Position numbers and translations under genes: made by a program. A stretch of DNA of 58,970 nt, the filler included, from Sphacelaria rigidula (lineage: Eukaryota), in assembly GCA_964200075.2 (NCBI GenBank). It is 8 parts of 8 records of this genome, joined end to end, with 100 filler letters (N's around TTAATTAATTAA, not from the genome) between each part and the next. Parts side by side here need not be neighbours in the genome. Positions count along the whole stretch, not along the records: positions 29,538 to 36,821 come from CAXNAA020015635.1; 7 more parts are not named here. One strand, given 5' to 3'. Shown here piece after piece: positions 7,286-57,000 of the stretch (position 1 is its first letter; every line of letters starts with the position of its first letter). The notes beneath the pieces are model-generated. The model was not told the DNA's origin. It worked only from the letters and a program-made list of their open reading frames with translations, and did not search any database.

Positions 7286-7385
7286 NNNNNNNNNNNNNNN
7301 NNNNNNNNNNNNNNNNNNNNNNNNNNNNNTTAATTAATTAANNNNNNNNNNNNNNNNNNNNNNNNNNNNNNNNNNNNNNNNNNNN
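7286..7385. other. Artificial 100-bp join spacer (N44-TTAATTAATTAA-N44)
   Basis: Identical spacers at 14670-14769, 22054-22153, 29438-29537, 36822-36921, 44205-44304 and 51588-51687. TTAATTAATTAA has stops in all six frames. Confidence 0.97.
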
Positions 7386-13185: not shown

Positions 13186-14769
13186 CGTTGACTAAACCCC
13201 ATCTCTAGTGACTTCTATACCGTACGGAGATAGCGTCTATACTAAAGTCTTCAGACTCTTTTGTCTTCGGTGAAAATTTCGGGGGATGTATGCAGTGAAG
13301 GTCCCGACCACAACGGGGCTGGTTCCAGCTGAAAAAATACGCGATGACTGATCTTTGCCGGTGTTCATCTATATACATGTTCAAGTTATTGCAGAACTAT
13401 AATATCCGACAAACTCAAGATTTTTTTCGTACACAGTCCGCCAAAATTCCTGTTGTGAAGTCTCGACCACAAGGCCACTTGTGATGTGCAAAATATTTAT
13501 TTTGTTGGCAGATGTCTTCTTGGCATTTCTCTGTCGATTTTCACCCGACAAGAGGGTTGGGCGGATGATGGCACCTCAGAATAACAAGCTTTATTCATTG
13601 ACACCGTTCTAGAGCACCTTGATCACCGCCGCAACACTTTTTTCAGCCGAACCTGCATTCTCAATCACGGTGGCGGTCACGTGACAAGAAAAAATAAGGA
13701 TCAACGCATCTTTGCGTTTAGTGTACGTGACAGTTTCGTTTACGGCCGAACTTGCAATTTTAATAACAAACGGTCAAGTTGTTGAAAAAACGGGCATTTT
13801 TTGCTTTATTCGTGTTACTGAGTTGACCGCTTCTTACTGAGATTTCGAGTTCGGCCACGAATAGAACCGTGACATGACCCTTGAACGGAAAAAGCGCTGT
13901 AGAACGACTGAATAAGTCGCGTTGACACACACCCACACTGAGGTGCCGTTTCGGATCTGCGCGATACCTCAGTCCACGTTGCTTATCGTTGTGGACACCG
14001 TTAGAACGAGTAACCATCGGAGGGTGAGGCACCGCACCCTAGACTCGACGCGCTCGCGGACCCTGCACATGTTGCCATCGTTCTAGGTGGCGGGTCGCCA
14101 AAGGAGTGCGGATAGGACGGCGGTAACTCACCGCATCTGTGATAGGCGGCGTAACCGCACCTCGTGTATCTTTCGACAGTTCCTGTTCGACAGTTCACTA
14201 CTGCATTGTCCACTTTTGAGGTGTTATTACTGTGTTTGTGGGTTTCTCCACCGTGTCTAAACCAGCCGGCTTCAAACTTGGCACAGAGGTAGAGCACAAC
14301 ACAGACACTATATACCCCGTTCGGCGGCACGTGTTGGGGGGTGCGCAGTAAGCACGGAGCGAATACGGATTTTGGGCAATGCCGTCCATACGCCCTCAAA
14401 ACAGCGTCTCCGCCGTCCAGACTGCTCGAGACATCGCTGGACGCATTTGTTGACACGCGGGGTGCGCTCACTTCGACGCCATGACCTACTAGGCGCCTTT
14501 TGCACCGCCAAAACAAACATCTGTCTGTAGTGACACACATACTGGATCACGACATCCTGCGCGGTACTAATATTCGCATTGCCTGTGACACTTTCTACGA
14601 TAGCCCCCCCCCAAAAAAACAGCTAAAAGTGTCACGAAAAAAATGGCCATACAGCGCCTGATGTTCGGGNNNNNNNNNNNNNNNNNNNNNNNNNNNNNNN
14701 NNNNNNNNNNNNNTTAATTAATTAANNNNNNNNNNNNNNNNNNNNNNNNNNNNNNNNNNNNNNNNNNNN

Positions 14770-17700: not shown

Positions 17701-18400
17701 CCTCGTACCGCTCGTCGGGTATACGTTGTCCCATTTCATCTAGGCGATCACGGTAGCCGTCCATGATGAACAGGAAGTCTTCCGGGTCATCTCCGGACTG
17801 CATCGTTGTGTTGTGGAGTTTGTCGTGGAACTCTCTTCGTGCCTCTTTGCTGTTGCCGTCAAATTTGTTGTGCCGCGCTGCCCACGCTGCCTGTCCGTTC
17901 GCAATCCCACGCTGATTTTTCCGTGCTAAAAAACAGAATACTAAACAGTCACACGGTCCCACGCCACTGAAGTTGTCGTACAACAGGGTGGTTGATCACC
18001 ATTGATTACGGTGGGCCTGGGTCTTCGCCGCCCCTGCAGGATTTCTGCGGCCGCACTGTGGTGAAGGGACAGGATCAACCGGAGTTAATCTTTGAATTTC
18101 CGGAAACTCGCTTTGTCTCTGCCATCAAACTTTGGACAGAGTTTCAGTACCCCTCGAATACCCTCATTGCCCGCCATGTGAATCCTGTTCGTTGCTGTGC
18201 TCTAACGTCACGAGTAAAGATAAAAAGGGTGTTCAAGTACAGGTTCCCCACCACACAATCGGCTTGCTCACCGCCGCTTGAGTTGTCGGTAGCGCAAAAA
18301 CAAACGTATGCAGATGAGCAGCAATGGGAAAGGTCCCCCACCGCTGCAGCGTCCTCCGAAGATGCCACTTAACTTTAACACCTGGAATCTTCTCGACAGA
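14770..18400 (-). mobile_element. Degenerate Ty1/Copia LTR retrotransposon (gag, integrase, RT/RNase H), truncated at the spacer
   Basis: Gag with a decayed zinc knuckle (CFRRGKRGHVKRNCP, ~17450-17490), gag-pre-integrase LWHRWMGH (~16730), integrase RLRADKGSE and TPQRIGLSKRVGRTL (~16430-16580), then RT/RNase H GSVMYLARVTRYDI, FSEANWG, QSTMEAE, YIDN and KHVALRYFF (14770-15600). This is Copia domain order, with many frameshifts and deletions. Confidence 0.92.
15765..15905 (+). repeat. Compound trinucleotide microsatellite (GCA/GTA/GTT/GAT) inside the Copia element
   Basis: Seen directly. It produces the poly-T/A/N stretches in the ORF track. Confidence 0.85.
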
Positions 18401-21600: not shown

Positions 21601-22369
21601 CACCTCCAGGAGACCCATGTGGCTCTCGTAAAGTAAGCTAGCGAAAGGTACCACTCGTTTCTGTAGACTGCGCGGTGGGTGAGTCAAAGAGATCCGAGGT
21701 TGGGCTAGAGAAACCCAAGGCCGTTATATCGTATTATGCCAAGATACTGTACTGTACCTTGAGGTACGGTCAAACAAAACGACGCCCAAGAAAAGGGTGA
21801 GCTATATGGGTTTTTGTTCTTTGCAAAATAGAGCAATAAACAGGAATACGGCGCTGAGTTATTTATTTACACCGACAGAAGTTGATCTGTCTGATGCAAC
21901 TGTAGCAATGCTGTCTCTCTTTCTCTGAGATTGGAGCTGGTTAACTCCTTGAAGACCCGGGCCCCTAGTTTGACGCGTTGAGGGTATTCCGTGGCCCGTG
22001 GCGAAGGATAGATAGTTTTGTCTTTTGTATTATTGGAGAGTGCCTAGACTGAGNNNNNNNNNNNNNNNNNNNNNNNNNNNNNNNNNNNNNNNNNNNNTTA
22101 ATTAATTAANNNNNNNNNNNNNNNNNNNNNNNNNNNNNNNNNNNNNNNNNNNNCCCCACGCCATACCGACAAGACCGGTCATGGCCTTCGTCGGAGGACG
22201 GGGAACGGAGGTTTATTACTGTATTATCATCGAGTGAAGAATTAAGTCAAACTTCGACGATTGACAACGGAGATGGGTGCGGGGTGCCGGGTTGACAAAA
22301 GTTGCGCGGGCTCCATCTGCGTCAGCGCGGCACCCCGCACGTAGAGGCCGCCAGAGACAGAATGAAAGA

Positions 22370-27036: not shown

Positions 27037-29537
27037 TTCGTTCTGAACCTACTGAGTGTTACTCAGTGTTGCTCCCTGTCTCGAAAAGACCTGTGCATGT
27101 TGCCACAGCTTCGTTTTGTGGCTGCATTATGTTGTCAATTGGCTCCTGCCTTGTAGAAAACACGAATCGCCACTTCGTTCACGTGTTCCCTACTCTTGTC
27201 GATGGCCGATGCCGACCCACACCGTGCCGCGCGTATCTCGGTGTTCATCGGAGCAGTTTGAACTGTGCCATGCCCTTCATTGACCTACACCGTGTACACT
27301 GTCTTCGCGTTTTGGAACCCATGGCTTGTGTTGCGTCCGACATGTTCTTGAGGTCATCTCTGCCCGCGAATCAGTCTGTAAACACGTGACGGTAACGATC
27401 ATTTTGCACTTGTCGATATTATTTTCGTTTCGTATTGTGTGTGCATTTATGTATTTGCTCTATGTTTGCCCAGCCGCACTTTTCTCCGCAATGACGATGG
27501 TACGCCACGACTACGGTGGCACTCGACATCACGGGCGGATCTATCCAGGATCGTGGAAGGTTGCGTTGACATGGCACTTTTCTGCGGAGGAATTCAACTC
27601 TTCCCCGGCCTCTCGAATGGGCAGGACCCTTGAACGGCCGCTTCAGTAGGACATGATATCGTCATTTTGCGCCTCTACGTGGGTAATTTTTGGCCATACC
27701 TGTAGATACAAGAAACAAATTAATGTAATGTTTGTGTACAGCAGCGAAGTTGCAAAAGTGGAGTAGGATTTTGTCAATGCAAATACAGGAATGGGGCAAT
27801 TGCGATGCTGTCGTACTGAGTACTACCAACAGCACCATCAACCGCGGAAGTACGCAGGCTCACACACACGCCCGGGAGGAGCATTCTCGAGCTGTCGTGG
27901 ATGGAAACAGAAGCGCGATTTGCAAGCTGCTGTCCGTGACGGCCGTTTACTACTACGCTTGGTTTTGACATGTACGAAGTATATATGAGCCTAAGATGGG
28001 CTGGTCTGCCGATGTGTCTCGACTGGAATGTTGGCGTTGGAGCTGTAGAGACCCGAGGGTTTCGGGTTTACTTTCAGCATCTCGTTCGTGTCGTGGTATT
28101 TACGTAGGGCGCTCGCCCGTGTTGGACATATGCTGCTCCAATTTGTGATAAATAGATATGTTGGTTGCTTGTAGCTGTACCGAGTTCGGATACACGTGCC
28201 CTTTTATCATGTATTTTTTAAATCCAAAAACGATTTGGTGAGTTATTGAAAAGTGGATGAAATGCGCTACTACGAATTTTCCAAGCCAGAAGTCTTCGGT
28301 TAATATCCTTGAATGTGTGGACCCGTTATTGGACTCGAGACGCGCAGGCTTTTGTGAGGGGCCCGCCGTAGTTGGTCTCGGTTGAGCTAAAAATGTTGGA
28401 TGAAAAGGGCCAACATAATTCCTCGGGTGGAAACTATCTCACCGCCCTAGCCTGCTGCGGGCGCTACTTTTCCCAGGCTTGAGAAAATATTCAAGAGATC
28501 AAACAAAGGGGCCCTTGGCGACATTTTCCGGGAGTCGTACCCCCGAAATATTTTCAAATCGAGAAAAGAACTGGGGGGAGTGCTACGTAGTTTTCTAGCT
28601 TGTTGTCCAGGAAAATGAAAAAAAACGTCCTCGGGCTTGGCTCGGGTACTGCCCCAGCCCTACCCGAAGAAGGAGATGTCAGTTTTTTTGCCTTGGGAAC
28701 AACTGTAAGAACCTCGTATTGCTCCCGAAAAAGAGTGCTTGGCCGCTGTCTGGAATGTTTGAGATCCATATTTGGGCGGGAGACGACTGTGATCTTTCCT
28801 TACTTCGCCCCACAAAATCGGGGGCTCGCGGGAGGGCATATTCGTCTGTTGCTCGCGTAAGTCGTTTCGCCATTGACCACGTACCCTTTTCGAGACGAAG
28901 CTGGGGGCTCGCTAGAAGAATTATGGCTTCCCGAAGGGGAAAAGTTGTGGGCTTCCTTGAATCAAAACGAGGAATTCGGGCGGGCGAACAAGAACGAGCA
29001 GCGTTAAACCAGTGAAGCAACCATAACGTCACCAGGAGAAGGTGGCTTGTGCCTCGCGAAGCAGCGGCCCATTGACCTCGCCCGTGTGATCCTTCATTTC
29101 AAGATAATTTCCTTGTTGTTTGGTGATGCCCGGCACTGCGAAATACGCCCCGACTACCAAGAGTCTAACAATGGCGAGGAAAACTGTTCACTGCTAAGCT
29201 CTTGCGACGACAAAAGAGATCACAAAGTGGATCCCTATACGAGCTGGGCCGGACTAGATGCGGATTTGAGCTCTCAAAGCAATATCTCATCGACACACGA
29301 TTCGGGCCGTGATCTGCAGATCGTATTAACCGTCTGATCATGGGGAAGGTGCCCTTGTGCTCAAAAGCCTGGGCCATTTTTTTCTCCTTGGAGCAATGCT
29401 ACGGTAGGGGTGCACTTTTTTCGCGAAATTTTGTCTGNNNNNNNNNNNNNNNNNNNNNNNNNNNNNNNNNNNNNNNNNNNNTTAATTAATTAANNNNNNN
29501 NNNNNNNNNNNNNNNNNNNNNNNNNNNNNNNNNNNNN

Positions 29538-32500
29538 GATTCAGTGACACTGATGCCGTTGTTTACGATCCCGGAATAGTAAAATTGAAAGCTGTTGTCG
29601 TGGATCATCAAGAAGTCCGACTCCTCCGCATAGATCCCTGATCAAGGCGACGGACGTAATCCATCACTCGTTCGGCATACCCAGGAGAAAAGGAATGACA
29701 TAGCCATGTGCAAAGCAAAAAAAAATAATAGTCAACAGGGAGCGCCACAAAGGGCGGCGGGATGCCAGATCGTTTCTTGTCAGACGAATGAAACGTCTTT
29801 ACGAGGAAGACATGCGCCTAACCCTAACCCTAGGTACTGTCAAGTCAAGCGAACGTACAGCGGGCAACAATCGTCCACAGAAAACGTCGAACAAGGGAGG
29901 TAGGAAGTTGCTTGACCGATTGATTGATTAATTGATTGTCGCACTTTAACTGACCCCCCCAAGGGATCCAGCCGTGGTCACATGATAGACGTTAGAATAA
30001 TTATAGTCAAGTGCCAAATTTTGTTTTGACGATATAGAGATTTACCGCGGCCTCTTGTCACGTCATGTACCGTTATGGTGTCTGGTCACGTCGGGCTAGG
30101 TTGTAGCGAAAGCCAGGCGGTCTTCTGCACGTAACTCATGCTGTGGCCAATGAAATCTCCCGCGGGTACTAATGCTTGTAGGTGTTTGGGACCAACACAC
30201 CATTACCAACACTAAACGTGTTGCCCATCTCCGCCATACTGCATGTATAGCCTGGGCCGAAACTGAGACTTGTCAAAACAAAGTTGAAGGTGGCGTGGAG
30301 ATCCCGAAATACATGAATGCAAGCACAAACTTCCGAGCACAAAACACGAAAAACAGGAGACAGCGAGAAGGTAATAACCACCGCCGTCTTACCACGCGAA
30401 TTGTTGTATAGCACGTTTCCGCTGACGTCACCCTGCTTGTGCCCACGCGTGTCGACGGCGGTGAACATGTCGTGTAGCTCCGAGGAATAAATGTTGCCGT
30501 AGACGGAGGCCGACTTGTTTGAGCAGAAACCGGTAGCCTGCAGGATTTTGATTGACCCAAGTGAATCGACATCGATCACACGGGGAAATTCGTGAAACGG
30601 TTTTGTCATATCGACGACGCGACGATCAGTATGGGAGTTTATATCGGGCATGATTACCTGAACCGTGACACCTCCATACCTGTATCCCCACTACGCCGAC
30701 ACCATGACTAGAAGGGAGAAAACAAAGACATACCCTGACAGAAAGGCCGAGTATAGTTGCAACTAAGTTCGGCACTCTGACGTGCAAAGCTGGTAAGATA
30801 CGTCAAAACCAACTGAGCCGGACCGCTGGCGGAATCACCAGGAACGATGTCTAGTTGCTTACTTGGTCTATTCGTGTATCTAATTCACCTCCCACGTGAG
30901 GCCGCCCCACGCACTGGTGTAGCCCAAATACGCAATCTCAGAGTTGACGACGTCCTTCGTGTGGAAAGAAAAAAAGAGCAATAGAGGGAAAGTTCAAGGA
31001 AACGCGTCAGCGATTGAAAAGATACCGCATTCAGGCTCGGCCTGGCCTGGACACCTGGTCCACATCCGCATTGGCCTGGCGGAAAGACTGATTACGTTAT
31101 GGTACAATAGAAAATGAAGGCATTTATTGATAAGCTGCCATGGACGAAAGAGTGGATCCATCCATACCGGAGCACGATGACAATAGCAATATCTAGCTCG
31201 CCATGGGCGCTTCGCCCATGATGCAACAGTAGTATCTAACTCACCATACGTGCTTCGCCCTGGTCGCATGGGCTTCCGTCGGTGACTTCCGTGGTCGCGC
31301 TGATAAAGCTTCGTCCATCGCTTGTGTTCGTGTCGTAGGCGTTGTTCACCGTGTCCCATCCCACCACCTCAAAAAGGCCAACAAGCATTGTGCAGATGTG
31401 TACACTGATATCGGACATCCACTGTTTGAAACACATGTGCAATGAATTGGTTCGCGTATGGCGACATGTACGTTTCCCTTCGCCGATCAGGGCCGAGAAA
31501 CCTTTTGGCTTTGCATACAAGGGTTCTAAAGTATTTATCTTCTTGGACGACTTTCTATCCAACCCAAGGGGTCGGTACGTGTCGAAATCCAAACAACAGG
31601 GACAGTCGACAAAAACTTGCGGGCATGAAGCCGCTCCTTGTAAGAGAAAATAAAAAAATATGGAGAAGTGCCTTTTCGGAGCTTCTACGTCGTGTTACGC
31701 TCTAAAATAGAGCTGGGTGGATTTCGACACCTTGGAATGACTTGTTCCACGTACTCGTTGAGGCGTTCCCAGGACATCTTCGCGTTCTCCGGTGGCCGCA
31801 ATTGTGGTTTAGCCAACCAAGCATATTTGTCCGAAAACGGTCGAGAACGGTCAAATCGAGGAAAAATCGTCATTTTTCTCTGGACTTGACTTTTTCCGGA
31901 CGAAAAATGCTTGTTTGGCCAAAATAAAACTGCTGCGACCGGAGAATGCGAACATGCCCTCGAACCGCCTCAACTAGTAGGGCAAGTCATTCCAAGGTGT
32001 CAAACCCCACCTAGATCTTTATTAGGCGTAAAACGACGTAGAAGCCCCCAAAAGGCTCTTATTTCCGTTTATTTTAAGGAACGGCCTGACAGTGAAGAAT
32101 CCATACGTCGGACATTGGACACAACCCGGGAATATTGCATTGTAGACGAGAGACGGGTAAAAACTGTCGGGTACGGAAGATGAAGCAGGTATTTTGGGCG
32201 TTCGCTCTCACTCTACTTCGATGGATTGAATATTTCGCCATCGAGAGGAATCGTTAGATTCGAGGTAGCATCTATCTGACAAAATCTTGCGGTGACGTGG
32301 ATATGAAACTGAAACATCGACACACTCCGTTCACTGATTTGCAGTCCTTCAGGCCTTAAGGGCAAACGTGTGTACAGGTGGGTATTGATTGCCAAGAGTA
32401 CAAGTTGTGTGGCCAAATTCAGACATCGCTGGCCGCGATGAAGATCCGCTGTGTCACCAGCAGCAACATTGATGGCCAGGGTTCTGATTCCTTGTGATCA

Positions 32501-35146
32501 GAATATAGATTGATGCGCATCATTCGGAGTCAATGACAATTTGCACCTGGTACCACAATAACAAAACTCCCGAGACTCAATCCATCCATACATGCACACA
32601 AGCGTTCTGAGTCTGTAAAACCCTCACGTCATTTTCTTTCATGCACCATCGAGGTATCAATACAGTAGTTGCTACATACATGCGAGATCACATCGTTGGT
32701 ATGGCGAAATCAGACAGAGAATGTATATATATATATATAATATGTACTTATAGATGGGAATGGTGACCCACACGAGGTTCTGGGATGTGAGCATCATCGA
32801 CCACCGATTAAAATTGTCGATTTACAGCTTTACCGACGGCAATACCGGCTTCTTCTACAGTGGATCACACCGCGATCGCGGTCTCTACCGCTTATTTTCC
32901 AGGGTGTGAGCCCCAAACATGGTGTGTGCTGCATTCAGATGTCCACCTTTGTGTTCTCGAAGTCAAGGCTTCCTCCATACGCCTGCAGCTTGGTGAAGGT
33001 CGCGTCTGTGCCATCAGTGAGGGGGGTGCTCTTGAGTCGCAGCTCGTTGACGTTTCCCCCCGACGCGGGTCCCCACACCTGCAGCAGCGCACCATATTCA
33101 ATCAAGCACACGATAAGGGAGGCCGAGGTCACGGGCCGACGGGGAAAATAGCGGAACTGCAAAGCGGCGGGAGGAGATGGAAAACATTATGATATCAGAG
33201 CGGCGGGAAGCTTCGCCACACTTCTGCCGGAGAATTGGCGAAGATGAAGACAAACACACGCGGCCATCTGGCTACCCCCCAACATGTCTCCTGAGGGATG
33301 CGCGGCCCTCCAGAGGCAAAACAAGCTCCCGAGGCCTTCAATCCCTTTGCAGGAAACCAAACACTACCGACTTGGAGGGCCGCGCACCCCTCCGGAGGAA
33401 TTCGGGGGTAGCAACATGCCTCGGGAAGGGTGCGCGGTTCTCCAGCAGCAAAAACAAGCTGCCGGAGGCGCTTCATCCCCCTCTGGAGGAAACCAAACAC
33501 TACCGACCTGGAGGGCCGCGCACCCCTCCGGAGGCGTTCAATTCCTCTGAATGCTCGGAACGTTAACCACCCTGGAGGAAATGTGGGGGTAGCCAAATGG
33601 TCGCGTGTGAAGCGCGTGACGAGACTCTTGACCCACTAACCAAACCGCCTCCTACCCCAGTCGCGTCTATGATGCGATGGCTATTTCAGCTCGATATATC
33701 GAGCTATATGCACTTCCCCGACTTTGAGGTTTTGACCTCTCCTGGTCCGCGTACTACGTGTGTTGTGTGTGTTGTCGCCCATCTGTCCTGGTCGCCGGTC
33801 TGCACCTTTCGGTTTACCTGGGCGCACTAGCTGAGGTCACACAGGAGGAAGGCCAACCCAGGAGTTTTTTTTTTTGTTTGCTTTAGCTGTCCACCTTCCT
33901 TCTGCGGTGCTTGCCTTCCTTTTTATCGCGAGAGAGGTTCAGCAGTCCGTTTACCTCGTCGACCAAGAAGTCGAATTTTGTGTGCGCACGACATAGCCCG
34001 CTCTCCACCGTTGGGCATTGTGTGAGAAAAAAATCCAGGTCGTTCCGAGACTTAAACCCGCGACCCAACCGTCAGAACGTTTCGAGGTTACCAACTAAGC
34101 CCCCGGGGCGACCGGCACCGTGTCGGGGATTATTCTTCTAATTCGTAGTATGATTTCCTTTTATTCGCTGTTCGGGTGACGTAACATCGTGACCACGGGC
34201 CGTAGATTTGTGAAAATGACTGATGTGAGACACAACAACAGCAGCATTATATAGAAACCCAAAAAACAGACAAATAAAATACCGTGTGAGGTGTCTTATT
34301 TCACGGGGTGGGTGGGTGGGGGTGCAGAGGTGGGACGGGAGAAGGGGGAGCATGAAGAAGGCATGTCCATTTTGGAATTTTCGGCGAAGACTACTGCCAT
34401 GCTGATGTCTGAGAAAATGGCAGAACAAGCGGTCACAAACGGTGATGCAAACTACAAGAAAAAGAGAGATTCTCCGCGAGAGAGATAATTCACAGAACTG
34501 CCTATATATGTTGAGGTCACCAGGACGCAGTATCGGCAGAAACGAAATGCGAGCCTGTGGTAGCTCGAGTGAAGCTGATGACAGCCAGTCACCAGTGTGC
34601 AGAAGAAATCCCGCTCAATGCGGACAAAAAGATGTGAGCGTTGCTATAACGGCCGCTGGTTCTCGTAGTACGTTCGACCAATCCAACTGAAATGTTTAAC
34701 GTTTGCTTATGAAACCTCCATTTTATTGAATTAAGCCACACTGCACCATGGTAATGTGTTTTAGACTCATAGACCCGACATACCTGGAGAGTTACGCCGT
34801 CCTGGACATACAGATCCTCCCACAGCAGCCAGGTGCCTGTGATCTCGCTGTTGAAGGCACCTGAATCGGGGTCCACGGGAAAGAGGGGCGAAAAGAAGCC
34901 GAACGTGTTCCAGATCTCGGTGATGGTAATACATCCCCCGCGCTCCGCGGCAACGACATATAAGGGCTCCGTCGTGTTTCTCACTCCCGCACCGTTACTG
35001 GCGAACTCAAAGCTCACTTCCACACTGCCATTGCATTCAGGCTTCGCGATTGCCCCACTTGTCGCAGAATCTGTGCTGGAGGTGCTGCTTGAGCCCGGGT
35101 GCAGGAGGGCCGCGAGGATCACCCACCGCAAAAACTTCAAAGCCAT
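29538..35146 (-). CDS. Secreted mannuronan C5-epimerase family protein (alginate-modifying beta-helix); 5' six exons, catalytic motif divergent
   Basis: Exons 35146-34784 (signal peptide MALKFLRWVILAALL...GTWLLWEDLYVQDGVTLQ), 33078-32947 (VWG..ELRLKS..AYGGSLDFENTK), 31367-31245 (VVGWDT..DGRSFISA..GEARM), 30954-30889 (DVVNSEIAYLGY..GLTWE), 30537-30393 (ATGFC..VYGNIYSSELH..GHKQGD..NNSR) and 29637-<29538 (GIYAEESDFLMIHDN..). All junctions are AG/GT and phase-consistent. Motif order matches brown algal ManC5-E as recalled. Confidence 0.9.
31655..32075. mobile_element. MITE in a ManC5-E intron, with TIRs related to the 5400-5915 foldback
   Basis: Left arm gccttttcggagcttctacgtcgtgttacgc...gacaccttggaatgacttg pairs with right arm caagtcattccaaggtgtc...gcgtaaaacgacgtagaagcccccaaaaggc. 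Confidence 0.75.
33290..33600 (+). repeat. Tandem duplication with ~136-bp period
   Basis: ggaaaccaaacactaccgac(t/c)tggagggccgcgcacccctccggagg occurs at ~33352 and ~33488. Confidence 0.75.
33758..34116 (-). mobile_element. tRNA-derived SINE, family B (full-length, diverged)
   Basis: Aligns along its length to 26670-27036. Confidence 0.85.
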
Positions 35147-37802
35147 TGTAGAGTGCTCTTCTGAGGGGGTCGACGGCGGACAAAGGATGAGAAGGAAAAG
35201 GGGTACCGGACGTTGTAGGTATGGAGAAGAAAGAAGCGAAGGGAGGAACAAGCGAGGAGTGTGTTGAGGTGTTGTGGTTAGCGTGCGTTCGGTTCATGGG
35301 AAAGCGGTTTCTGAAATCAGTTCCTACAAAGTGGGTTGTGCATCTGAAGTGCCGCAAGAGCATCGTGCTACCGTTATTTCTCACCTCACCCCATCCTCTA
35401 CTAAACTTTATTCAGCGTTCGTGGTCACACAGCTGGGGCGAGAGAAACTCAAGTTTGTTGTTTTGCCCGACGCGCTGTTTCGGACAGCTCCGAATTTTTC
35501 GGACATTTTGAATTTGGGTTTCAACATTTCCGAAAATGAAGCAGCTTGATTTGTTCGCCGGGGCGTCCTGTATGGAGAAGTCCAAACGATTCGGACCGCA
35601 CCGCAGCACTTCGGGGGGCTGCCCTGTTTGTACGCCGTGGCGCTCGTAAGCGTTACAGAGTAACCAGAAACTCTGCCAGTGACACCCTGGCCCATATCTG
35701 AAAGTAGAAACCGCCGTCGGTTAGCAGTAGTGGCGTCCTTAGCGGCGAAAGCGAGCAAAAGACGAGGTCAGCACGTTGTCCGTGGTGAGAGTTCGAACGA
35801 CAGCTGGATTACTCACCAGTAAGAACGCCACCCTCTGCGCTGTTTCAGAACCTTTCCCAACGAAACCAAACGATAATGATGGGTCTTGGTCAAGTTAGGT
35901 TCAGGCTGGCGACGTAAATGCACCCGCGAATCATACATGGCACGCGGAAAGGGGCTCTATGAATACGTCCATGGAAAAAAAAAAAACGTTCGTACAAATC
36001 AACGTATGACTTGGGAACGAAGGAAACACAAAATGTTTTAGAATCGTGGATGGATTCTGTTGAGAAGTCGAGCGAGCGAGGCCATAGATTTCGGCCGAGA
36101 AGTGTATTTGCATTTTTTCCAGCAGCATTTTGATGCCTACGGAGGTTCCCACCATACTTTCGGCAGCGATCCCCCCCAAGTTGGTTTTGGTGTGCACGGG
36201 GGGGAACCGGCAACGGTTAGTCCTAAAGCTGCAATTTCAATATCTGTACGGTGCGCTAGTTGTGTCGCGCCCATCTATCCATACCGCCATGCGTGTAATC
36301 CAGTTTGTTCAGCTTCCATTTGCTCAGACAAGACGGCTGCTTTAACGTTAGCTGCGCTACGCTGCGCTGTGATGTTCGAGAATGCACGCACAGCCCACTA
36401 AGCTCAGTATAGTGGGGTGCTCAGAACTGCATACAGTACCCGACCCGCCCTCGGTACTCTTCTATTACTTGGGTGTCGGTCGAGCATCAAAGAACTCTGC
36501 CGAAAAAGAAGTCAGACGTTGTCACGAACCTCCTGAGCGATTTATTGAATACAAACTTGCAGAAGGACCAGCACTGATGATATTATAAATCAAACAACGA
36601 GAGTACCGGGGATGCACGCAAAAAACAAAATATACCCCACGTACCCATTTTTTCATCTTGGATGTCTCACGGGGGGGTATACTCATGATCATGCATGCCA
36701 TAGTCATAAGACCATAGACACCTCGCTCTCACGGGGGGGGGGGGGGAGGAAGTAGAGCCCCCCCCCCCCCCCCCCCCACCCCCCCCAAACCCCCCGAAAA
36801 AACCCCCCCCCCGGGGAAAAANNNNNNNNNNNNNNNNNNNNNNNNNNNNNNNNNNNNNNNNNNNNTTAATTAATTAANNNNNNNNNNNNNNNNNNNNNNN
36901 NNNNNNNNNNNNNNNNNNNNNCCCATCACCTTGCCACACAGCCCTTTGTGGTCGGGATGGGCCACTATTTCCTCCTTTGTTGCATGCGGCAAATTCTCTT
37001 CGGACGGGATCAGTGTTGCGGCACGCATGCATGCAACAGTATAGTACAGTACACTGTAGTACAGCGTAGTACGTCTCTCCGACTGAAGCAGCAGCTGCCG
37101 CTCCACACTCCCTTGCACGTTCTGGGCAATTCTCAGCTACCGAGATCAACTGCCTACACACCGCTTCTTCATCCTGCTACACCATATGAATTGCACCCTG
37201 CAAGTCATCGCCAGGGGGATAAGAAGAACTCATGACAGTAGATCCTCTTGTCTTTCCACAGCCCACCTGGTTTTAGGGCGTGGTGAAAATGACTACATTG
37301 TAGCATGTACACTCCCCGCTTTTCCGGTCGACCCCGTGTTAGTGTAAATTACCACGTTTTAGTAGGGAATTGAGACCCAAAAAACCCACCGGAAAACTCG
37401 GGAACGGTATACTGAGTGCAAGTCATATCATACAACCAAGCTCAAACCGCCCTGCGCTTGGAAACCTGCGAAGGCATATCTGGGCCAGGGATGGGGTCCC
37501 CACACGATCTTTACAGTGGCATCATACTCGCCGACATCCCTAGCACCGGTCGTTCGGGTCTGGTCGATAAATTCCGCCTCGCCGTGATTGAGCAGGTCGC
37601 TCGAAGACTTGTTTTTCTATCATTACACTAACACAGGGTCAACCCTGTGTTACTGGGGGGTCGGTCCCAAAAGGATTAAATCCGTTTCCAGGCTGGAGCT
37701 TCAACTTGCTCATACTTCCTGTTGTACGGGTTGGTGATGAAAATATCGTGTCAAAATTTCAGCGCCTAACTCTTCAAATTACCAATCGCATCGCCAGGAA
37801 TC

Positions 37803-43569: not shown

Positions 43570-44481
43570 ATTCGCGATTAGCGAATTAAGAATAATTCGA
43601 GTAATTCGAAGATTCGTGAATTTCGTAGTTCGCGAAATAATTCGAATCACGACTTCAATTTAATTCGAAACCTGAAAACGCCGAAAAGTCCACAAACTAC
43701 AACAACTCTACCGAAAAAACACATGTTATTACTTGAAACAGTTTTGCAAAAACAGCCAACTGATTATTTCGATTGTCTGTTGAAACATCCCCTAGCTTTC
43801 CTTGTCGCGCACTGTTGCTCTGGTGTCTACAACTCCTTTAGTACATTCGAAATGTCTCTCTACAGGTGAGGTGAGGCGCTGTTCATTGGACTCCCTCATC
43901 TTGGAAAAAACTAGTGCCAGAGTTTTTTTCGGGTTCTGGAATTATTCGCAAGGGGCCGGAAGTTTCCAAGCTATGAAATTTCCTATTTTAATGTCTATAA
44001 ATCACTTCTAGCAGCGGGAATATTTTTCCGAGACATAATTAGCAGCACTTTACTTCTCACGACAGTATTCTCTATTAAACAGCGGATCCTGAAAAATGGG
44101 GTCCATCTCAAAAATGAGGTTGAAGTGGCATTTCTTTTTTGCAGGGATGACGCGAAACACTGATAACCGAGCGAAGCCATCTTCCCCCCCAAATGTGCGC
44201 GCCANNNNNNNNNNNNNNNNNNNNNNNNNNNNNNNNNNNNNNNNNNNNTTAATTAATTAANNNNNNNNNNNNNNNNNNNNNNNNNNNNNNNNNNNNNNNN
44301 NNNNCAAAATCACACTGGTACGAGTAGTGCTGCAAGATGGCATCAAGGTTGTCAACAGCTCCATCATGGGAGAGAACCTCCCAGCAGGTGGTCATTTACC
44401 ACCCTAAGAGGGAGAAGTACTACCTCAAACCGCGCTTTACAGCCCCCAGATGCAAGGCGCTATAGCAGATTATGCGCAAAA

Positions 44482-51339: not shown

Positions 51340-52121
51340 CTGCAAGTTCATGACGTAAGTTTGGTAGAGATACCGCGACATTTCGTCAATGTCCATGGTT
51401 CATGGAGCATGACACGGAGGGGAGGGTGGGGCAGCGGGATAATCCCATACCACAATGTTTAGTGTGAAGAGGGCTTTCAAAAGACTGCCGAGAAATGAGG
51501 TGACCTGTGACGGTTTAACCCTTAGACCGCGAGATTAGTCTTTCTGGGCCATGCATACTTTTTTTCACTTGAAATTGATGCCGATTCNNNNNNNNNNNNN
51601 NNNNNNNNNNNNNNNNNNNNNNNNNNNNNNNTTAATTAATTAANNNNNNNNNNNNNNNNNNNNNNNNNNNNNNNNNNNNNNNNNNNNCGCAGGAGGCAGC
51701 GGGGCCAGGCCGAACGCGGCAGCGAAAACAAACAAAGAACATCCCCCCCCCCCCCCCCCCCCTCTATTGTAGTATGACTCGTACGTGAACACACACGTAC
51801 AATGCAGGATACCAACTACCGCGGTTTCCCGTGACAGGAGACGAGAGTTTCAGATTCCCGCAGTTCCCGCGACATCTTTATCTTGATGCGTAGGTACCAC
51901 ATCTGTCCGGCCTCGTAACGTCCGTACCGCCATTTTGGGAAACCAGGCACCGGGGTACAGTATAATCCAAACACCTCATCGTACATCCCGCCGCACTGCA
52001 CAGGTACCGCAAACATCGTGCGCCGCGGCGATACCGCGAAAACCAAGTCAATACAAAAGTGAATGGTTATTTTCCAAACACCAGTTCCGAGGCTAGCCCG
52101 GAAATCTGTAGTGTTTGGGTC

Positions 52122-52373: not shown

Positions 52374-52709
52374 ATATCGATATTAGTGCTAGTCGTGCTA
52401 GTAGTGCTATCGTTAGTGACTGCTGGAAATTTCTCAGTAGAGAGGAGTCTGGACAGCTTCGGACATATTGCTTCATGGACGCTTGAGAGGGTTCGAGCTG
52501 AGGTAGCTGCAAAGGCGGCTGGCCCGTGATTGATCCAGACTGGAGCCTTGCTGGAGCTGCGTGCAGCGGGAGCTAATAGGACCCCACGGCCGTGTGGTGC
52601 GGCGACGAAGGCAGGTGTGAACTGTAGAGTTCGAGAAGATTCAGAAGTCTTCGATTAGGTCCGCTCGGAAATGCCGACTACAGAAGTACCGACCGAATAG
52701 CCAGCGGAG

Positions 52710-53603
52710 ATGACCGTAACCCCAGTTGTTCTGAGAGAAGAGTTGCGGCCTCCCAGTTACGGGAATGTGTATTCTGAGTGTGCTTCTCGTTCGTTTTACA
52801 CGAAATATGTGGAATATAAGAAGCGGGTGGAACATTCGAATGCCGGGGGTGCGGTAAGGCATCAGGTGGTATCCACGGCGCAACTCGTGCCTACCCCCCT
52901 CCAACGCGTTTTTGTGAGAAGATTCCATGAGAAGAACACAATACCGCCGCCGCAGTTGGCTGCAGCGATCAAGAAGCATGCTGAGCATGCGGCGGGCGCT
53001 GAGGTAGAGCTAACCCAGGCGTCCGCGGTCGTGGCGAAGGCTGTCGCCTTGAACCATATGGAGAAGAACATGCGTGAGAGGGTGGAGCCAATCATGGGAA
53101 AGTTGGAGACATATTTTTCGGAAAATCCCAACGTCGAGATGGTTAATCGTTTCTCTGATGGGAAATATCGTCCAGGGCCCGCTGCGGTGATCACGAAAGC
53201 GATGGTGGAGGGTCTAGCACCGGCGGAATTCAAACAGGCCGTGCTTGTGCAATTACAGCACGAAACCAATTGGAAGTCAGACCCGTACTTAGTTATGGAT
53301 ACCGTGGTGGCTGAGGCTCAGGCATGGCGGAAGATTGAAGTACTCGGGAAATCATCCACTTCGTCGCCGCAGTCTTCGAGCTCGCGTAACCGCGGATCAG
53401 AACCCGCAGGCAGTGCTGCCGCCAACATCACTTGCTTTCAGTGTGGCCAGGTAGTCCGCTACGCACGCAAGTGCCCAACGCCTTCCGAGGGGGAGTCTGG
53501 GCAGACAAGTGCCGCGCGCCCTCGCAATCACAAAGGAGGAAAAGGTAATCGGGGTGGTGGCGGGGGCGGATCCTCCAGCGGTGGAGGTGCGCAGTCGAGT
53601 TCC

Positions 53604-53641
<38 letters not shown>

Positions 53642-53654
53642 GCAGCAGGGGTAG
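52710..53654 (+). pseudogene. gag: Gypsy gag
   Basis: 314-aa ORF with a decayed zinc knuckle (CFQCGQVVRYARKCP) and a poly-Q (CAG) tract at ~53603-53647. Confidence 0.8.
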
Positions 53655-54039
53655 CGGTGTTACCAGGGGTCCGGGTTTAGGTCCGGCTCAGCCGCAGCGG
53701 CTGCTGCTCCGCAACGGACGGTGCGGGTGGGACCGACCACTCTAGTGTCGGGCTCGGTGCCGGCCGGCGGCAGCAGAGCAAGGCGAGACGCCTGCTGCTG
53801 AGCCGGTCGGATTTCAGCTGAAATTTGGATCCGCTGCTGCGTCGGCCGGAGTGCCGCTGCAATTTGGTTCTGCGGGCGGGGCTTCGTACCCGCCGGCGGT
53901 GCCGTTTACCCCAGCGGGGGCGTCTATGCCTGCGTCGCACGCGCAGCCGTGGCGCCAAGTGGGGATCACGACAAATCAGTCGGCGGAGCAGGTGCCGGTC
54001 GAGGATAAATATATATATATATATATTCCTGCAGAGTTA

Positions 54040-57000
54040 TATCTCCCAAATCAACGGGCGCGGGGAGCCATATCGATCAACGCTGTTTTGGATTCAGGCG
54101 CCCATTTCACGAGGTGTCGGTGCTGATTGTGGAGATGCTGGAGCGTCTACTCCCTGGTGAGAAAATCCGCATTCCGTCCTCGCTCGGGGCGCGGCAGGCC
54201 ATCACCGCATCGGGGCAACGTGTAAATGTCACGGAGCGTACGATTCCCCTGCAGTTGGCGTTCAGAATGACCTGGGGGTCAGCGAAATTACCCCCGATAT
54301 CGTTTGCGATCATGCCGGGGATGGATGGTGTCGATCTGTTGGGCTTACCGATGCTTCGGGAACTCGGAGTCAACCGGTATGATCGGCTGTTAGAGTCCCT
54401 ACAAACGCAAATGCCGTCACCCGGTTCGAGTGTCGAGACGCCTGATTTTTTGGCCAGTCGCAGATTGAGCTTGTCGGTTGATGCTCTCCAGGAGGCGGGG
54501 GGGCAGGTGTCCGAGGAGCGTGATGAGGCGGCGGAACGCTCAGTCGAGCGTGGCGCCTATATATTTATGGAGCCGGCAGAAGAGGAGTCCGCGCGAATGG
54601 TTGCGCTGGAGGAAAGCGTGACGGATGCTGTAGCAAATGGCCTCAACGTCTCAAAAGCGGAGCGCCTGCGTAGCATATTGTATCGCCACGTTAACGCGTT
54701 TCGTCGTGCGCTGATGGGTGATCCCCCTGCGCTCGTGGAACCCATGAGGGTTACACTGAAGCCAGGGGCGGCCGCGGTGAAGGCAAAACCGAGGAGGTAT
54801 GATCCGGCAAAGTCCAGTTGGTTAGCTTCTTGCATGGGAGCTCTTGAGGCGTTTGGGTTGGTGTTCAGGGATCAACAGGCGGTGTGGTCCAGTCCAGCGA
54901 TGGCGGTGCCGAAGAAGGACGCTTTCCGTCTTGTCAGCGATTACGGAGCCGTCAATGATCAGGTGGAGAAGTCGCCGGGTGTCATGTCCAATCAGGAATC
55001 CGATATGATAGACCTGTTGAGCGCGCGATGCTTTGGTAAGTTGGACCTCCTACAGGGGTACTGGCAGATGCCGTTGACCGAAGAGGCTCAGGAGATATTC
55101 ACCATCACGACTCCGTTTGGCATGTTTACCCCGCAACGAGTACCGAAAGGCCTGTTGAATGCTACTTCCTTTTTTCAAGGTGTCATGGTGGACCTTTTAG
55201 ATGGCTTGAAATGCAAGATCTGGGTGGATGATGTATTTCTCTTCGCGGATACGGAAGACGAACTGGTGGATACGCTTGATGCAATCTTGGCTCGCTTAGA
55301 GAGTGTTGGTCTGTTTGTAGCGGCCCACAAGTGTACCTTTTTTGCTAGTGAATTAGTGTGGTGTGGGAAAGTATATTTACACGGCGGCGGCTCGCATGAC
55401 CCGGTCAGCTTGCAAGGTTTGTCTGACACGCGGCGTCCAGAAACAGTAGTAGAACTAATGCAATTCCTGCACGCAATGAACTGATTGCGTACCTCGTTGC
55501 CACGTATGGCCGAAGTAGTGGCGCCTTTGCGTGTTTTCCTAGAAGAACTCATGGTGGGGGCTGCAAGGCGCACGAAGCGAGTGGCCAAAAACTGCGTTAT
55601 TCCGCCCGCATCGTGGACGGAGGACAGGCTGCAGGCATGGGCGGAAGCGAAGGATCTGGTGGCTCATGCCGTGACGCTGTTCTATCCCCGCCCCGGTTGC
55701 CAGGTGCTGATGTTTCCGGATGTATCCGGGTGTCATTGGGGTAGTTTTGTAACGCAGGTACCTGATGCAGAAATGCAACAACGGTTGCCGGTTGAAGACA
55801 TGACGCATGAACCGCTGGCCTTTCTTAGTGGTAAGTTGAAGTGTTCACAGATGCGTTGGGCAACCATTGACAAGGAAGGTTTTGCTATCGTGAGCACTTT
55901 TCGTCGTCTCGAGCATCTGTTGTGGAATGGCGTGCACATTTTCATGGATCACCGAAATCTAGCGTACATTTTCAACCCGGAGGCATGCGTGACGTATGTG
56001 TCGAAGGCGTTGGCACAGCGATTGGACGGGTGGAAAGGTGTATTAGGCCAGTATCGGTACACAATTTGTCATATTTTGGGTGAACGTAACGCGTGGGGTG
56101 ACTTGCTGTCGCGCTGGGTAAATCTTCGCACTATGCCCGCGCGAGCTGTGACTGTACCTGGTCCGTGTGAAGCGGATGATTCGATGCCGTCGAAATCTGT
56201 GGTCCGCCAAGCTCAACGGAAAGAACTCGCGGCCACTGATGCGGATGTGCAATCCTTCGAGTCGGATGTTGGTACTGCGATTTTGGACAATGAAGGTTTG
56301 TTTCGTGTGCATGTACGTGGCCGAAACGTGTTGTGGATTCCCAGCTCCGACAAACGATTGCACATACGTTTGATGATTTGTGCCCCCATGCGCGATGCCG
56401 GGCATCGTGGTGTGGCTGCGACGCTCGTGCGCTTGCATGAGTTTTGTGTTTGGCAGGGAAAGGAAACTCAGGTGCGCGAGTTTGTCCGACAGTGTCTTCT
56501 TCACTGTGCTGATTCGAGGGCGGGCGATGTTGTCCCCCGCCCGCTCGATGAAGCGGTCCATGGGACCACGCCGAATGAAGTCGTTCATTTTGACTTCTTG
56601 TACGTGGGCGAGAGTGGCCCGCTAGCTTCCCAAGGTTTGTCGGAGGATGCTGGGTTTCGATACATTTTGGTAATCATGGATGATTTGAGCAAATTTGTGA
56701 CTCTGGAACCAGTAGCAGTGTGTACTGCCAAACCGACCGCTGCATCTTTGCTGAATTGGTGCAAAACTTTGGGGGTACCGCGTGTGTGGGTGAGTGGTAC
56801 CGCCACGCATTTCAAGAACACGATCTTGACCCGCTTGCGAGAGGCATTACACGTTGATCACCGGTTTGCGGTGACATATTCTCCGTGGTCTAACGGCACG
56901 TGCGAACGCGTAGTTAAGGAAGTAGTCCGTGCTCTTCGATCTATTCTTCTCGAGCAGCGTCGAGAGGTGACCGAGTGGGTGGACGTGCTGCCCGCTGTGC

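What the first reader, a model, noticed from the sequence alone, without database searches (positions are those of the whole stretch)
29538..30537. Mannuronan C5-epimerase homologue lacking the catalytic DPHD motif
Seen: six exons splice cleanly with no stops and begin with a signal peptide. The exon 5/6 junction reads ...VLYNNSR-GIYAEESDFLMIHDN. Established: alginate C5-epimerases (AlgE, AlgG and brown algal ManC5-E) carry YG(F/I)DPH(D/E) at this position, e.g. NxxYGFDPHDDSDFLTIHDN, supplying the catalytic Tyr/Asp/His. Here the flanks (SDFLxIHDN, GHxQGD, VYGNIY) are kept while the Tyr, Asp and His are gone. Basic residues nearby are also changed (recalled consensus WKVRG versus WEATG here). 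Inference: an intact pseudo-enzyme or neofunctionalised cell-wall beta-helix, such as an alginate binder, scaffold, regulator or an enzyme with a different substrate, hidden within the expanded ManC5-E family.
Basis: partly seen in the sequence, partly recalled or inferred. Interest (0 to 1): 0.75.

Follow-up and report, generated by a model that had tools for sequence, protein, structure and literature searches.

The report
Dead alginate epimerases with hypervariable grooves
This brown-algal gene is a spliced member of a small family of alginate-epimerase copies that have lost all their catalytic residues but kept the secreted protein scaffold, while the old sugar-binding groove changes faster than neutral DNA, as expected of proteins that recognise a variable partner.

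Summary
The six exons join into 309 open codons, and spliced contigs from three runs of one study cross the 30393/29637 junction with nothing between. No DPHD exon is skipped. The gene is cut by a contig end, and its 3' half was not found.

The gene is not alone. Three paralogues in the same genome have homologous introns, open frames and no DPHD, and the four form a clade nested among canonical ManC5-E. They have lost the catalytic Tyr/Asp/His and also the Tyr, His, Lys and Arg of neighbouring coils.

Selection is inverted. Groove-facing codons differ at p = 0.60, against 0.26 at four-fold sites and 0.08-0.09 for core groove sites in canonical paralogues. Codon models give omega 1.7-2.9 for the groove core (p < 0.01 in 5 of 6 fits) and about 0.2-0.3 for inward positions.

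Best reading: secreted pseudo-epimerases whose groove is under diversifying selection to bind a variable ligand, probably in defence or recognition, and probably not alginate. The ligand and the loss of activity are inferred, not assayed. No description was found in the papers searched.

The parts
34784..35146 (-). Coding exon 1: start codon, predicted signal peptide, Ser/Thr linker, N-terminal part of the ManC5-E fold
   Evidence: hydropathy. Of 4 RNA-versus-genome differences, the 3 that were listed are all synonymous.
32947..33078 (-). Coding exon 2, with the loop insertion shared with the canonical P0030/P0071/P0074/P0075 group
31245..31367 (-). Coding exon 3
30889..30954 (-). Coding exon 4: first groove coil, with Y210 and K215 replaced
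   Evidence: Model. Not listed as its own piece, but the gap of about 63 record letters between the flanking pieces fits it. Residues.
30393..30537 (-). Coding exon 5: second groove coil (F248, Y251, Y253 replaced); ends with the codon at the catalytic Tyr position, here Arg
29538..29637 (-). Coding exon 6, cut by the contig end: the former DPHD coil (D274 to Tyr, H276 to Glu) and the next coil (H295, S300, K301 replaced)
29638..30392 (-). Intron 5 (GT-AG here; modelled as GC-AG in the three paralogues). Holds a high-copy repeat and no DPHD exon.
35147..35160 (-). 5' untranslated part of exon 1, behind an AG acceptor. About 29 unplaced transcript letters suggest a further non-coding exon upstream.
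   Evidence: inference
35468..35839 (-). Upstream non-coding stretch homologous (68-71%) to the upstream DNA of two paralogues; candidate promoter or 5' UTR exon
29438..29537 (.). 100-nt spacer between unrelated contigs; not biology

Best explanation
A canonical ManC5-E gene of the P0030 group was duplicated. The copy lost the epimerase active site and expanded to at least four genes (shown by tree and gene structure). The products keep a signal peptide and the inward-facing and Asn-ladder residues of the right-handed beta-helix, so they are most likely folded, secreted wall proteins without a membrane anchor (inferred). The face that held alginate has become a variable binding surface: its residues and the loops around it differ between all paralogues and change faster than neutral DNA (shown statistically). 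Each paralogue therefore most likely binds a different or changing partner. The likeliest partner is a microbial or viral molecule met in the wall, such as a wall-degrading enzyme to be blocked or a surface molecule to be sensed; a self/non-self or gamete ligand is the alternative (inferred; no ligand known).
For: Spliced transcript. Three paralogues open through exon 9, one of them complete at 487 aa. About 9-14 stops per paralogue (6 for the window gene's part) would be expected under neutrality, and none is seen; pairs differ by 4-12 indels, all in frame. Clade support 1.0, stem 0.585, nested among DPHD proteins. Groove positions: amino-acid identity 0.18 and p(codon positions 1+2) 0.60 [0.52-0.67], against inward 0.15, outer PB2 face 0.16, four-fold sites 0.26 (98 of 378) and introns 0.24-0.34. 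Codon model: omega 2.88 for 18 core groove sites (p 2.8e-6), 0.25 inward, 0.32 PB2. It stays at 2.0-2.4 with p < 0.01 in four of five harsher fits. Control: in two groups of canonical paralogues from the same genome the same core sites differ at 8 of 96 and 14 of 164, at similar four-fold divergence. Across 59 canonical proteins core groove identity is 0.81 and PB2-outer identity 0.35.
Against: No ligand, activity assay, expression context or phenotype. The harshest fit (exon 4 onward with double-nucleotide changes) gives omega 1.68, p 0.053. Whole-region Nei-Gojobori ratios for the groove exons are 0.68-0.93, not above 1. Only four sequences and 18 core sites; the model is my own code, not PAML. 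Site classes follow the canonical register but were set after I had seen the alignment. Facing is inferred from strand alternation, since no coordinates could be read and no clade member could be folded. Synonymous divergence varies along the gene, so conversion or recombination is possible. The window gene's own 3' half is unseen, and expression of the paralogues was not tested.
Confidence: 0.58

Rival explanations
1. Structural or accessory wall proteins that work through the conserved outer face or by bulk. The groove is simply unconstrained, and its apparent excess of change comes from mutation clusters or small samples.
For: The PB2 outer face is conserved within the clade (omega 0.21-0.32). 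One fit of six is not significant. Region-wide ratios are below 1.
Against: Groove p of 0.60 is twice the intron and four-fold values, and its interval excludes them. Five of six fits reject omega = 1. The fit that does not reject it needs a doublet rate of 0.68 relative to single transversions, which looks high.
Confidence: 0.2
2. Neofunctionalised enzymes, each acting on a different wall polymer or linkage with newly recruited acidic residues.
For: Beta-helix folds host many lyases and hydrolases (list, for the canonical sister). Acidic residues occur in the grooves. Duplicated diatom alginate lyases gained new activities (PMC11960938, abstract and passages).
Against: No polar groove residue is shared by all four paralogues: position 274 is Tyr/Gly/His/Trp and position 276 is Glu/Glu/Ile/Ile. 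A new active site should be fixed and then conserved.
Confidence: 0.1
3. Non-catalytic alginate binders or regulators of epimerisation.
For: Descent from an alginate enzyme; fold and signal peptide kept; C16212 carries several Arg on the groove.
Against: Y251, Y253, Y271, H295, K301, R327, R370 and Y396, which are 0.69-1.0 identical among canonical proteins, are lost or kept in at most one paralogue. A constant host polymer would not drive diversification.
Confidence: 0.08
4. Decaying duplicates or transcribed pseudogenes.
For: Overall omega 0.53-0.70 is high; the window gene's 3' half is unseen.
Against: No stops, only in-frame indels, and inward omega 0.18-0.25 (p 5e-16 against 1). The 3 listed allelic differences are all synonymous. 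The transcript is correctly spliced.
Confidence: 0.04

Closest known systems
Brown-algal mannuronan C5-epimerases, group of P0030 (Hapterophycus canaliculatus CAM9370594.1), P0062 (Scytosiphon promiscuus), P0071 (Ectocarpus sp. 6), P0074 (Undaria gene model), P0075 (Pylaiella littoralis)
   Same: Same domain along the whole length, signal peptide, shared loop insertion in exon 2, several shared intron positions; nearest database proteins by tree and BLAST.
   Different: All of these keep DPHD and the conserved groove. The clade has lost both, and its groove is the most variable surface rather than the most conserved.
Pseudomonas syringae AlgG (PDB 4NK6) and Azotobacter AlgE4 A-module (2PYG/2PYH)
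   Same: The canonical sister P0030 matches AlgG by sequence (E 6e-14) and by fold (model pLDDT 95.7, Foldseek E 9e-14).
   Different: The His of DPHD and Tyr314, described as catalytic in PMC4444821 (passage), have no counterpart in the clade. The clade's own fold was not predicted.
Plant XIP-type xylanase inhibitors (GH18 chitinase-like); an analogy of function, not kinship
   Same: Secreted wall proteins of a carbohydrate-enzyme fold redeployed against microbial enzymes (starts of abstracts, PMC12329526 and PMC9739030). That XIPs lack chitinase activity is recalled.
   Different: Unrelated fold and organism; no inhibitor activity is shown here.
Nitzschia sing1 PL7 alginate-lyase families with substituted catalytic residues
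   Same: Duplication followed by loss of catalytic residues in an alginate enzyme of a stramenopile (PMC11960938, passages).
   Different: Lyase jelly-roll fold in an alginate-eating diatom, membrane-anchored forms; no hypervariable groove was seen in the passages read.

Membership tests
Mannuronan C5-epimerase (ManC5-E / AlgG type) | Homology to the ManC5-E domain | tested here: met
   41% identity over 241 aa to a canonical copy, E 2e-49; nested in the family tree
Mannuronan C5-epimerase (ManC5-E / AlgG type) | DPHD catalytic motif with the preceding Tyr | tested here: not met
   Absent in 4 of 4 clade genes; junction confirmed in transcripts for the window gene only
Mannuronan C5-epimerase (ManC5-E / AlgG type) | Conserved aromatic and basic groove residues on neighbouring coils | tested here: not met
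Mannuronan C5-epimerase (ManC5-E / AlgG type) | Right-handed parallel beta-helix | tested here: inconclusive
   Shown for the canonical sister only. For the clade it is inferred from conserved inward and Asn-ladder positions.
Mannuronan C5-epimerase (ManC5-E / AlgG type) | Secretion signal | tested here: inconclusive
   Basic N-terminus and hydrophobic core in four exon-1 copies, no later membrane span; no signal-peptide predictor available
Mannuronan C5-epimerase (ManC5-E / AlgG type) | Converts M to G in polymannuronate | not testable with these tools
   Needs recombinant protein and NMR
Pseudogene | Disrupted frame or neutral evolution of the whole coding sequence | tested here: not met
   the window gene's 3' half is unseen
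Diversifying recognition or inhibitor protein (XIP-like role) | Positive selection concentrated on one surface of a conserved scaffold | tested here: met
   (one of six fits borderline)
Diversifying recognition or inhibitor protein (XIP-like role) | Binds or inhibits a non-self molecule; induced on challenge | not testable with these tools
   No ligand or challenge data

The most novel reading that the evidence does not exclude
A brown alga has turned an alginate epimerase into a small repertoire of secreted beta-helix recognition proteins whose former active-site groove works as a variable binding site in an arms race with pathogens or wall-degrading microbes: an innate-immune family built from a wall enzyme.
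Probability: 0.35. Interest if true: 0.88.

Novelty: new variant of a known kind. Interest (0 to 1): 0.74.

Why it matters
The most recent survey of brown-algal wall enzymes states that all its ManC5-E sequences have DPHD (PMC11468063). A transcribed, conserved clade without it means that gene counts can include non-enzymes. Groove-restricted positive selection would also give a concrete, testable candidate family for extracellular recognition in brown algae. The four natural variants on one scaffold tell an experimenter which positions set specificity.

Tried and rejected
Hidden or alternative DPHD exon: none in any frame of the contig, and the transcript joins exon 5 to exon 6 directly.

3' half of the window gene: five searches of G000 found only the three paralogues, canonical genes or repeats. 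One search was crowded by a repeat (40 of 859 candidates scored), so absence from the assembly is not proven.

Orthologues in other species: exon 1 against longer proteins gave 0 hits among 1467 candidates (insensitive, it also missed P0030). With P0030 as query, only the best 120 of 457 hits were shown; the region search showed all 63 hits. None of 143 stored proteins of 250 aa or more looked like a clade member, although the window gene and C5494 share 25 and 22 five-letter words with that region. One 68-aa exon-1 fragment from an unnamed assembly (P0002) groups with the clade at support 0.985.

An alignment of separate exons on P0030 was misaligned and was not used. Exon 5 alone found nothing in the PDB. 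No RNA holder was on record as RNA. Two rows (P0116, P0168) were dropped from the tree for coverage under 55%. A tenth coil included was out of register in one paralogue and was left out. Ice-binding role: rejected by eye, since no regular Thr ladder lies on the conserved face.

Fischl et al. 2016 (Ectocarpus family) is not held; it may mention motif-less members. Three look-ups of earlier findings gave nothing that bears on this.

Full report
Setting. The window has seven identical 100-nt spacers about every 7.4 kb and is a row of separate contigs. Positions 29538 onward are G000:C15635 from base 1. The gene lies on the minus strand and its sixth coding exon is cut by the contig start. The organism is taken to be a brown alga because its proteins group with named brown-algal sequences.

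Observation. The six exons give 929 nt and 309 open codons with GT-AG introns. Eight runs held the stretch, none on record as RNA; I laid four of them. In X1, X2 and X3 (one study) a single spliced contig covers the exons. In X1, record letters 782-880 match exon 6 and 881-1028 match exon 5, with no gap. A further 781 letters continue past the contig end, enough for the roughly 180 codons and stop seen in a complete paralogue. X6 runs through the introns. Four letters differ from the genome in exon 1; the three that were listed are synonymous. Against the canonical protein P0030, Y271, D274, H276 and D277 are Arg, Tyr, Glu and Glu, with two short deletions. PMC4444821 (passage) assigns proton abstraction to the His of DPHD and the proton-donor water to Tyr314 of AlgG. 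PDB titles list a D317A mutant. Epimerase activity is therefore very unlikely; this is inference, not assay.

A family. Exon 5 found three further loci in G000: C5494, C16212 and C16108. Models built from coordinates are open to a stop: 487 aa complete, and 318 and 317 aa from exon 3 onward. Their intron 5 is modelled as GC-AG and has no transcript check. Two more contigs, C21308 and C23768, carry matching first exons, probably those of the two partial genes. Introns align between all four genes at p 0.24-0.34, so they are duplicates of one gene. In a tree of 127 sequences (2 dropped) they form a clade with support 1.0 on a stem of 0.585 inside a 31-sequence group whose other members were mostly screened as DPHD-bearing. 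In the N-terminal tree they are sister to P0030, P0062 and P0071-P0074 (support 0.88). The same genome has canonical genes: 21 of 40 contigs examined show DPHD, one of them split by an intron. Of 129 aligned sequences, 116 have DPH[DE]. The 13 without are the four clade genes, two truncated records, three with DPHH and four unnamed, probably viral, proteins. That set was chosen by similarity to a canonical query, so it is biased toward the motif.

Anatomy. The model of P0030 (pLDDT 95.7, 59 sequences) matches AlgG best. It has strands at 211-217, 248-253, 273-276, 297-300, 323-325, 345-350, 367-372, 391-396 and 425-433, the coils in register with the catalytic strand. I took positions in register with D274 and H276 as groove-facing and the alternating ones as inward; this is inferred from strand alternation. 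Among 59 canonical proteins the groove core is 0.81 identical and the outer PB2 face 0.35. Among the four clade genes the groove is 0.18 identical, inward positions 0.72 and the PB2 face 0.71. Position 274 is Tyr, Gly, His or Trp; 251 is Asp, Lys, Ser or Tyr; 298 is Ser, Thr, Arg or Tyr. Most indels fall in loops flanking the groove strands.

Selection. First and second codon positions of groove sites differ at 0.60 [0.52-0.67], twice the rate of four-fold sites (0.26) and introns. Local alignment may bias the intron figure downward. A fixed-sites codon model written here gives omega 2.88 for 18 core groove sites (p 2.8e-6 against 1), 1.66 for groove edges, 0.25 inward, 0.32 PB2, 0.79 PB3 and 0.67 elsewhere. 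Restricting to exon 4 onward gives 2.39 (p 0.0003); coils 1-7 give 2.24 (p 0.002); the four coils that the window gene covers give 2.16 (p 0.0099). Allowing multi-nucleotide changes gives 2.04 (p 0.005) on the whole gene and 1.68 (p 0.053) on exon 4 onward. Whole-gene Nei-Gojobori ratios are 0.53-0.70, and 0.68-0.93 for the groove exons, as expected from a mix of constrained and fast sites but also compatible with relaxation. In two groups of canonical paralogues from the same genome the core groove differs at 8 of 96 and 14 of 164 positions, with four-fold p of 0.22 and 0.19. Neutral decay would have left about 6-14 stops per gene, and none is present.

Mechanism. Shown: descent from a ManC5-E, loss of the catalytic and conserved groove residues, splicing of the window gene, purifying selection on the scaffold, and excess change on the groove (strong, with one borderline fit). 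Inferred: secretion and folding, absence of activity, and binding of a variable partner through the groove. A constant host polymer would not drive such change, so defence (blocking microbial wall-degrading enzymes or sensing a microbe or virus) or self/non-self recognition is the most economical cause. PMC8307928 (passages) notes that ManC5-E genes rise after oligo-alginate signals in Laminaria digitata; that is context only. No membrane span is evident, so an inhibitor, decoy or agglutinin role fits better than a signalling receptor.

What is known. PMC11468063 (passages; supplement search) says that all its ManC5-E sequences possess DPHD; its alignment figure shows selected sequences and could be read only as garbled text. 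The Phaeoexplorer preprint 10.1101/2024.02.19.579948 (passages) describes expansion of the family and no motif-less members in those passages. Searches listed no paper on DPHD-less brown-algal ManC5-E. Fischl et al. 2016 is not held, and most subscription papers and bioRxiv supplements were out of reach, so earlier mention of single degenerate copies cannot be excluded. XIP inhibitors (abstract starts) and diatom PL7 variants (abstract and passages) are analogies. The clade was not found in annotated proteins of other species; one unnamed exon fragment (P0002) joins it, so it may be lineage-restricted.

Verdict. A real feature and a new variant of a known family: homologous to ManC5-E but failing its defining catalytic test, and behaving like a diversifying binding protein. 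Interest 0.74.

Noticed in passing
window 7286-7385, 14670-14769, 22054-22153, 29438-29537, 36822-36921, 44205-44304, 51588-51687: Seven identical spacers. At least two pieces were shown to be separate contigs (C15631, C15635), so neighbours across a spacer are not genomic neighbours.
   Followed up: yes
G000:C21237, C17492 (L035, L043), probably also C21832 (L036): A second, more distant ManC5-E-like lineage with NPQD in place of DPHD in two contigs; another candidate altered enzyme.
   Followed up: no
G000:C21542 (L050): An otherwise canonical exon with DPDD, lacking the catalytic His.
   Followed up: no
G000:C1093:8964-10862 (L009 454-2352): Intronless 632-aa ManC5-E-like ORF with DPHD among other intronless ORFs and a short-repeat protein; probably an endogenous phaeovirus segment (inference; PMC9614988 passage says EsV-1 encodes a predicted alginate epimerase).
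   Followed up: partly
P0049, P0053, P0054, P0069, P0047, P0107, P0132: Unnamed ManC5-E-like proteins from short contigs, probably viral, with a deleted or altered motif: independent losses outside the clade.
   Followed up: partly
G000:C8416, C25302, C13849, C6591, C15529: A set of near-identical ManC5-E copies, several at contig ends, one with a frameshift-like break (C25302). C2267 is an intronless copy split over three frames.
   Followed up: no
window 29781-30023, 31725-32210, 33183-34154: High-copy repeats inside introns 5, 2 and 1. The element near 33183-33550 resembles one in intron 8 of paralogue C5494.
   Followed up: no
window 52701-57000: Long plus-strand ORFs (317, 491, 508 aa) that look like retrotransposon gag/pol pieces (by eye). 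Another gag-like piece lies near 17995 on the minus strand.
   Followed up: no
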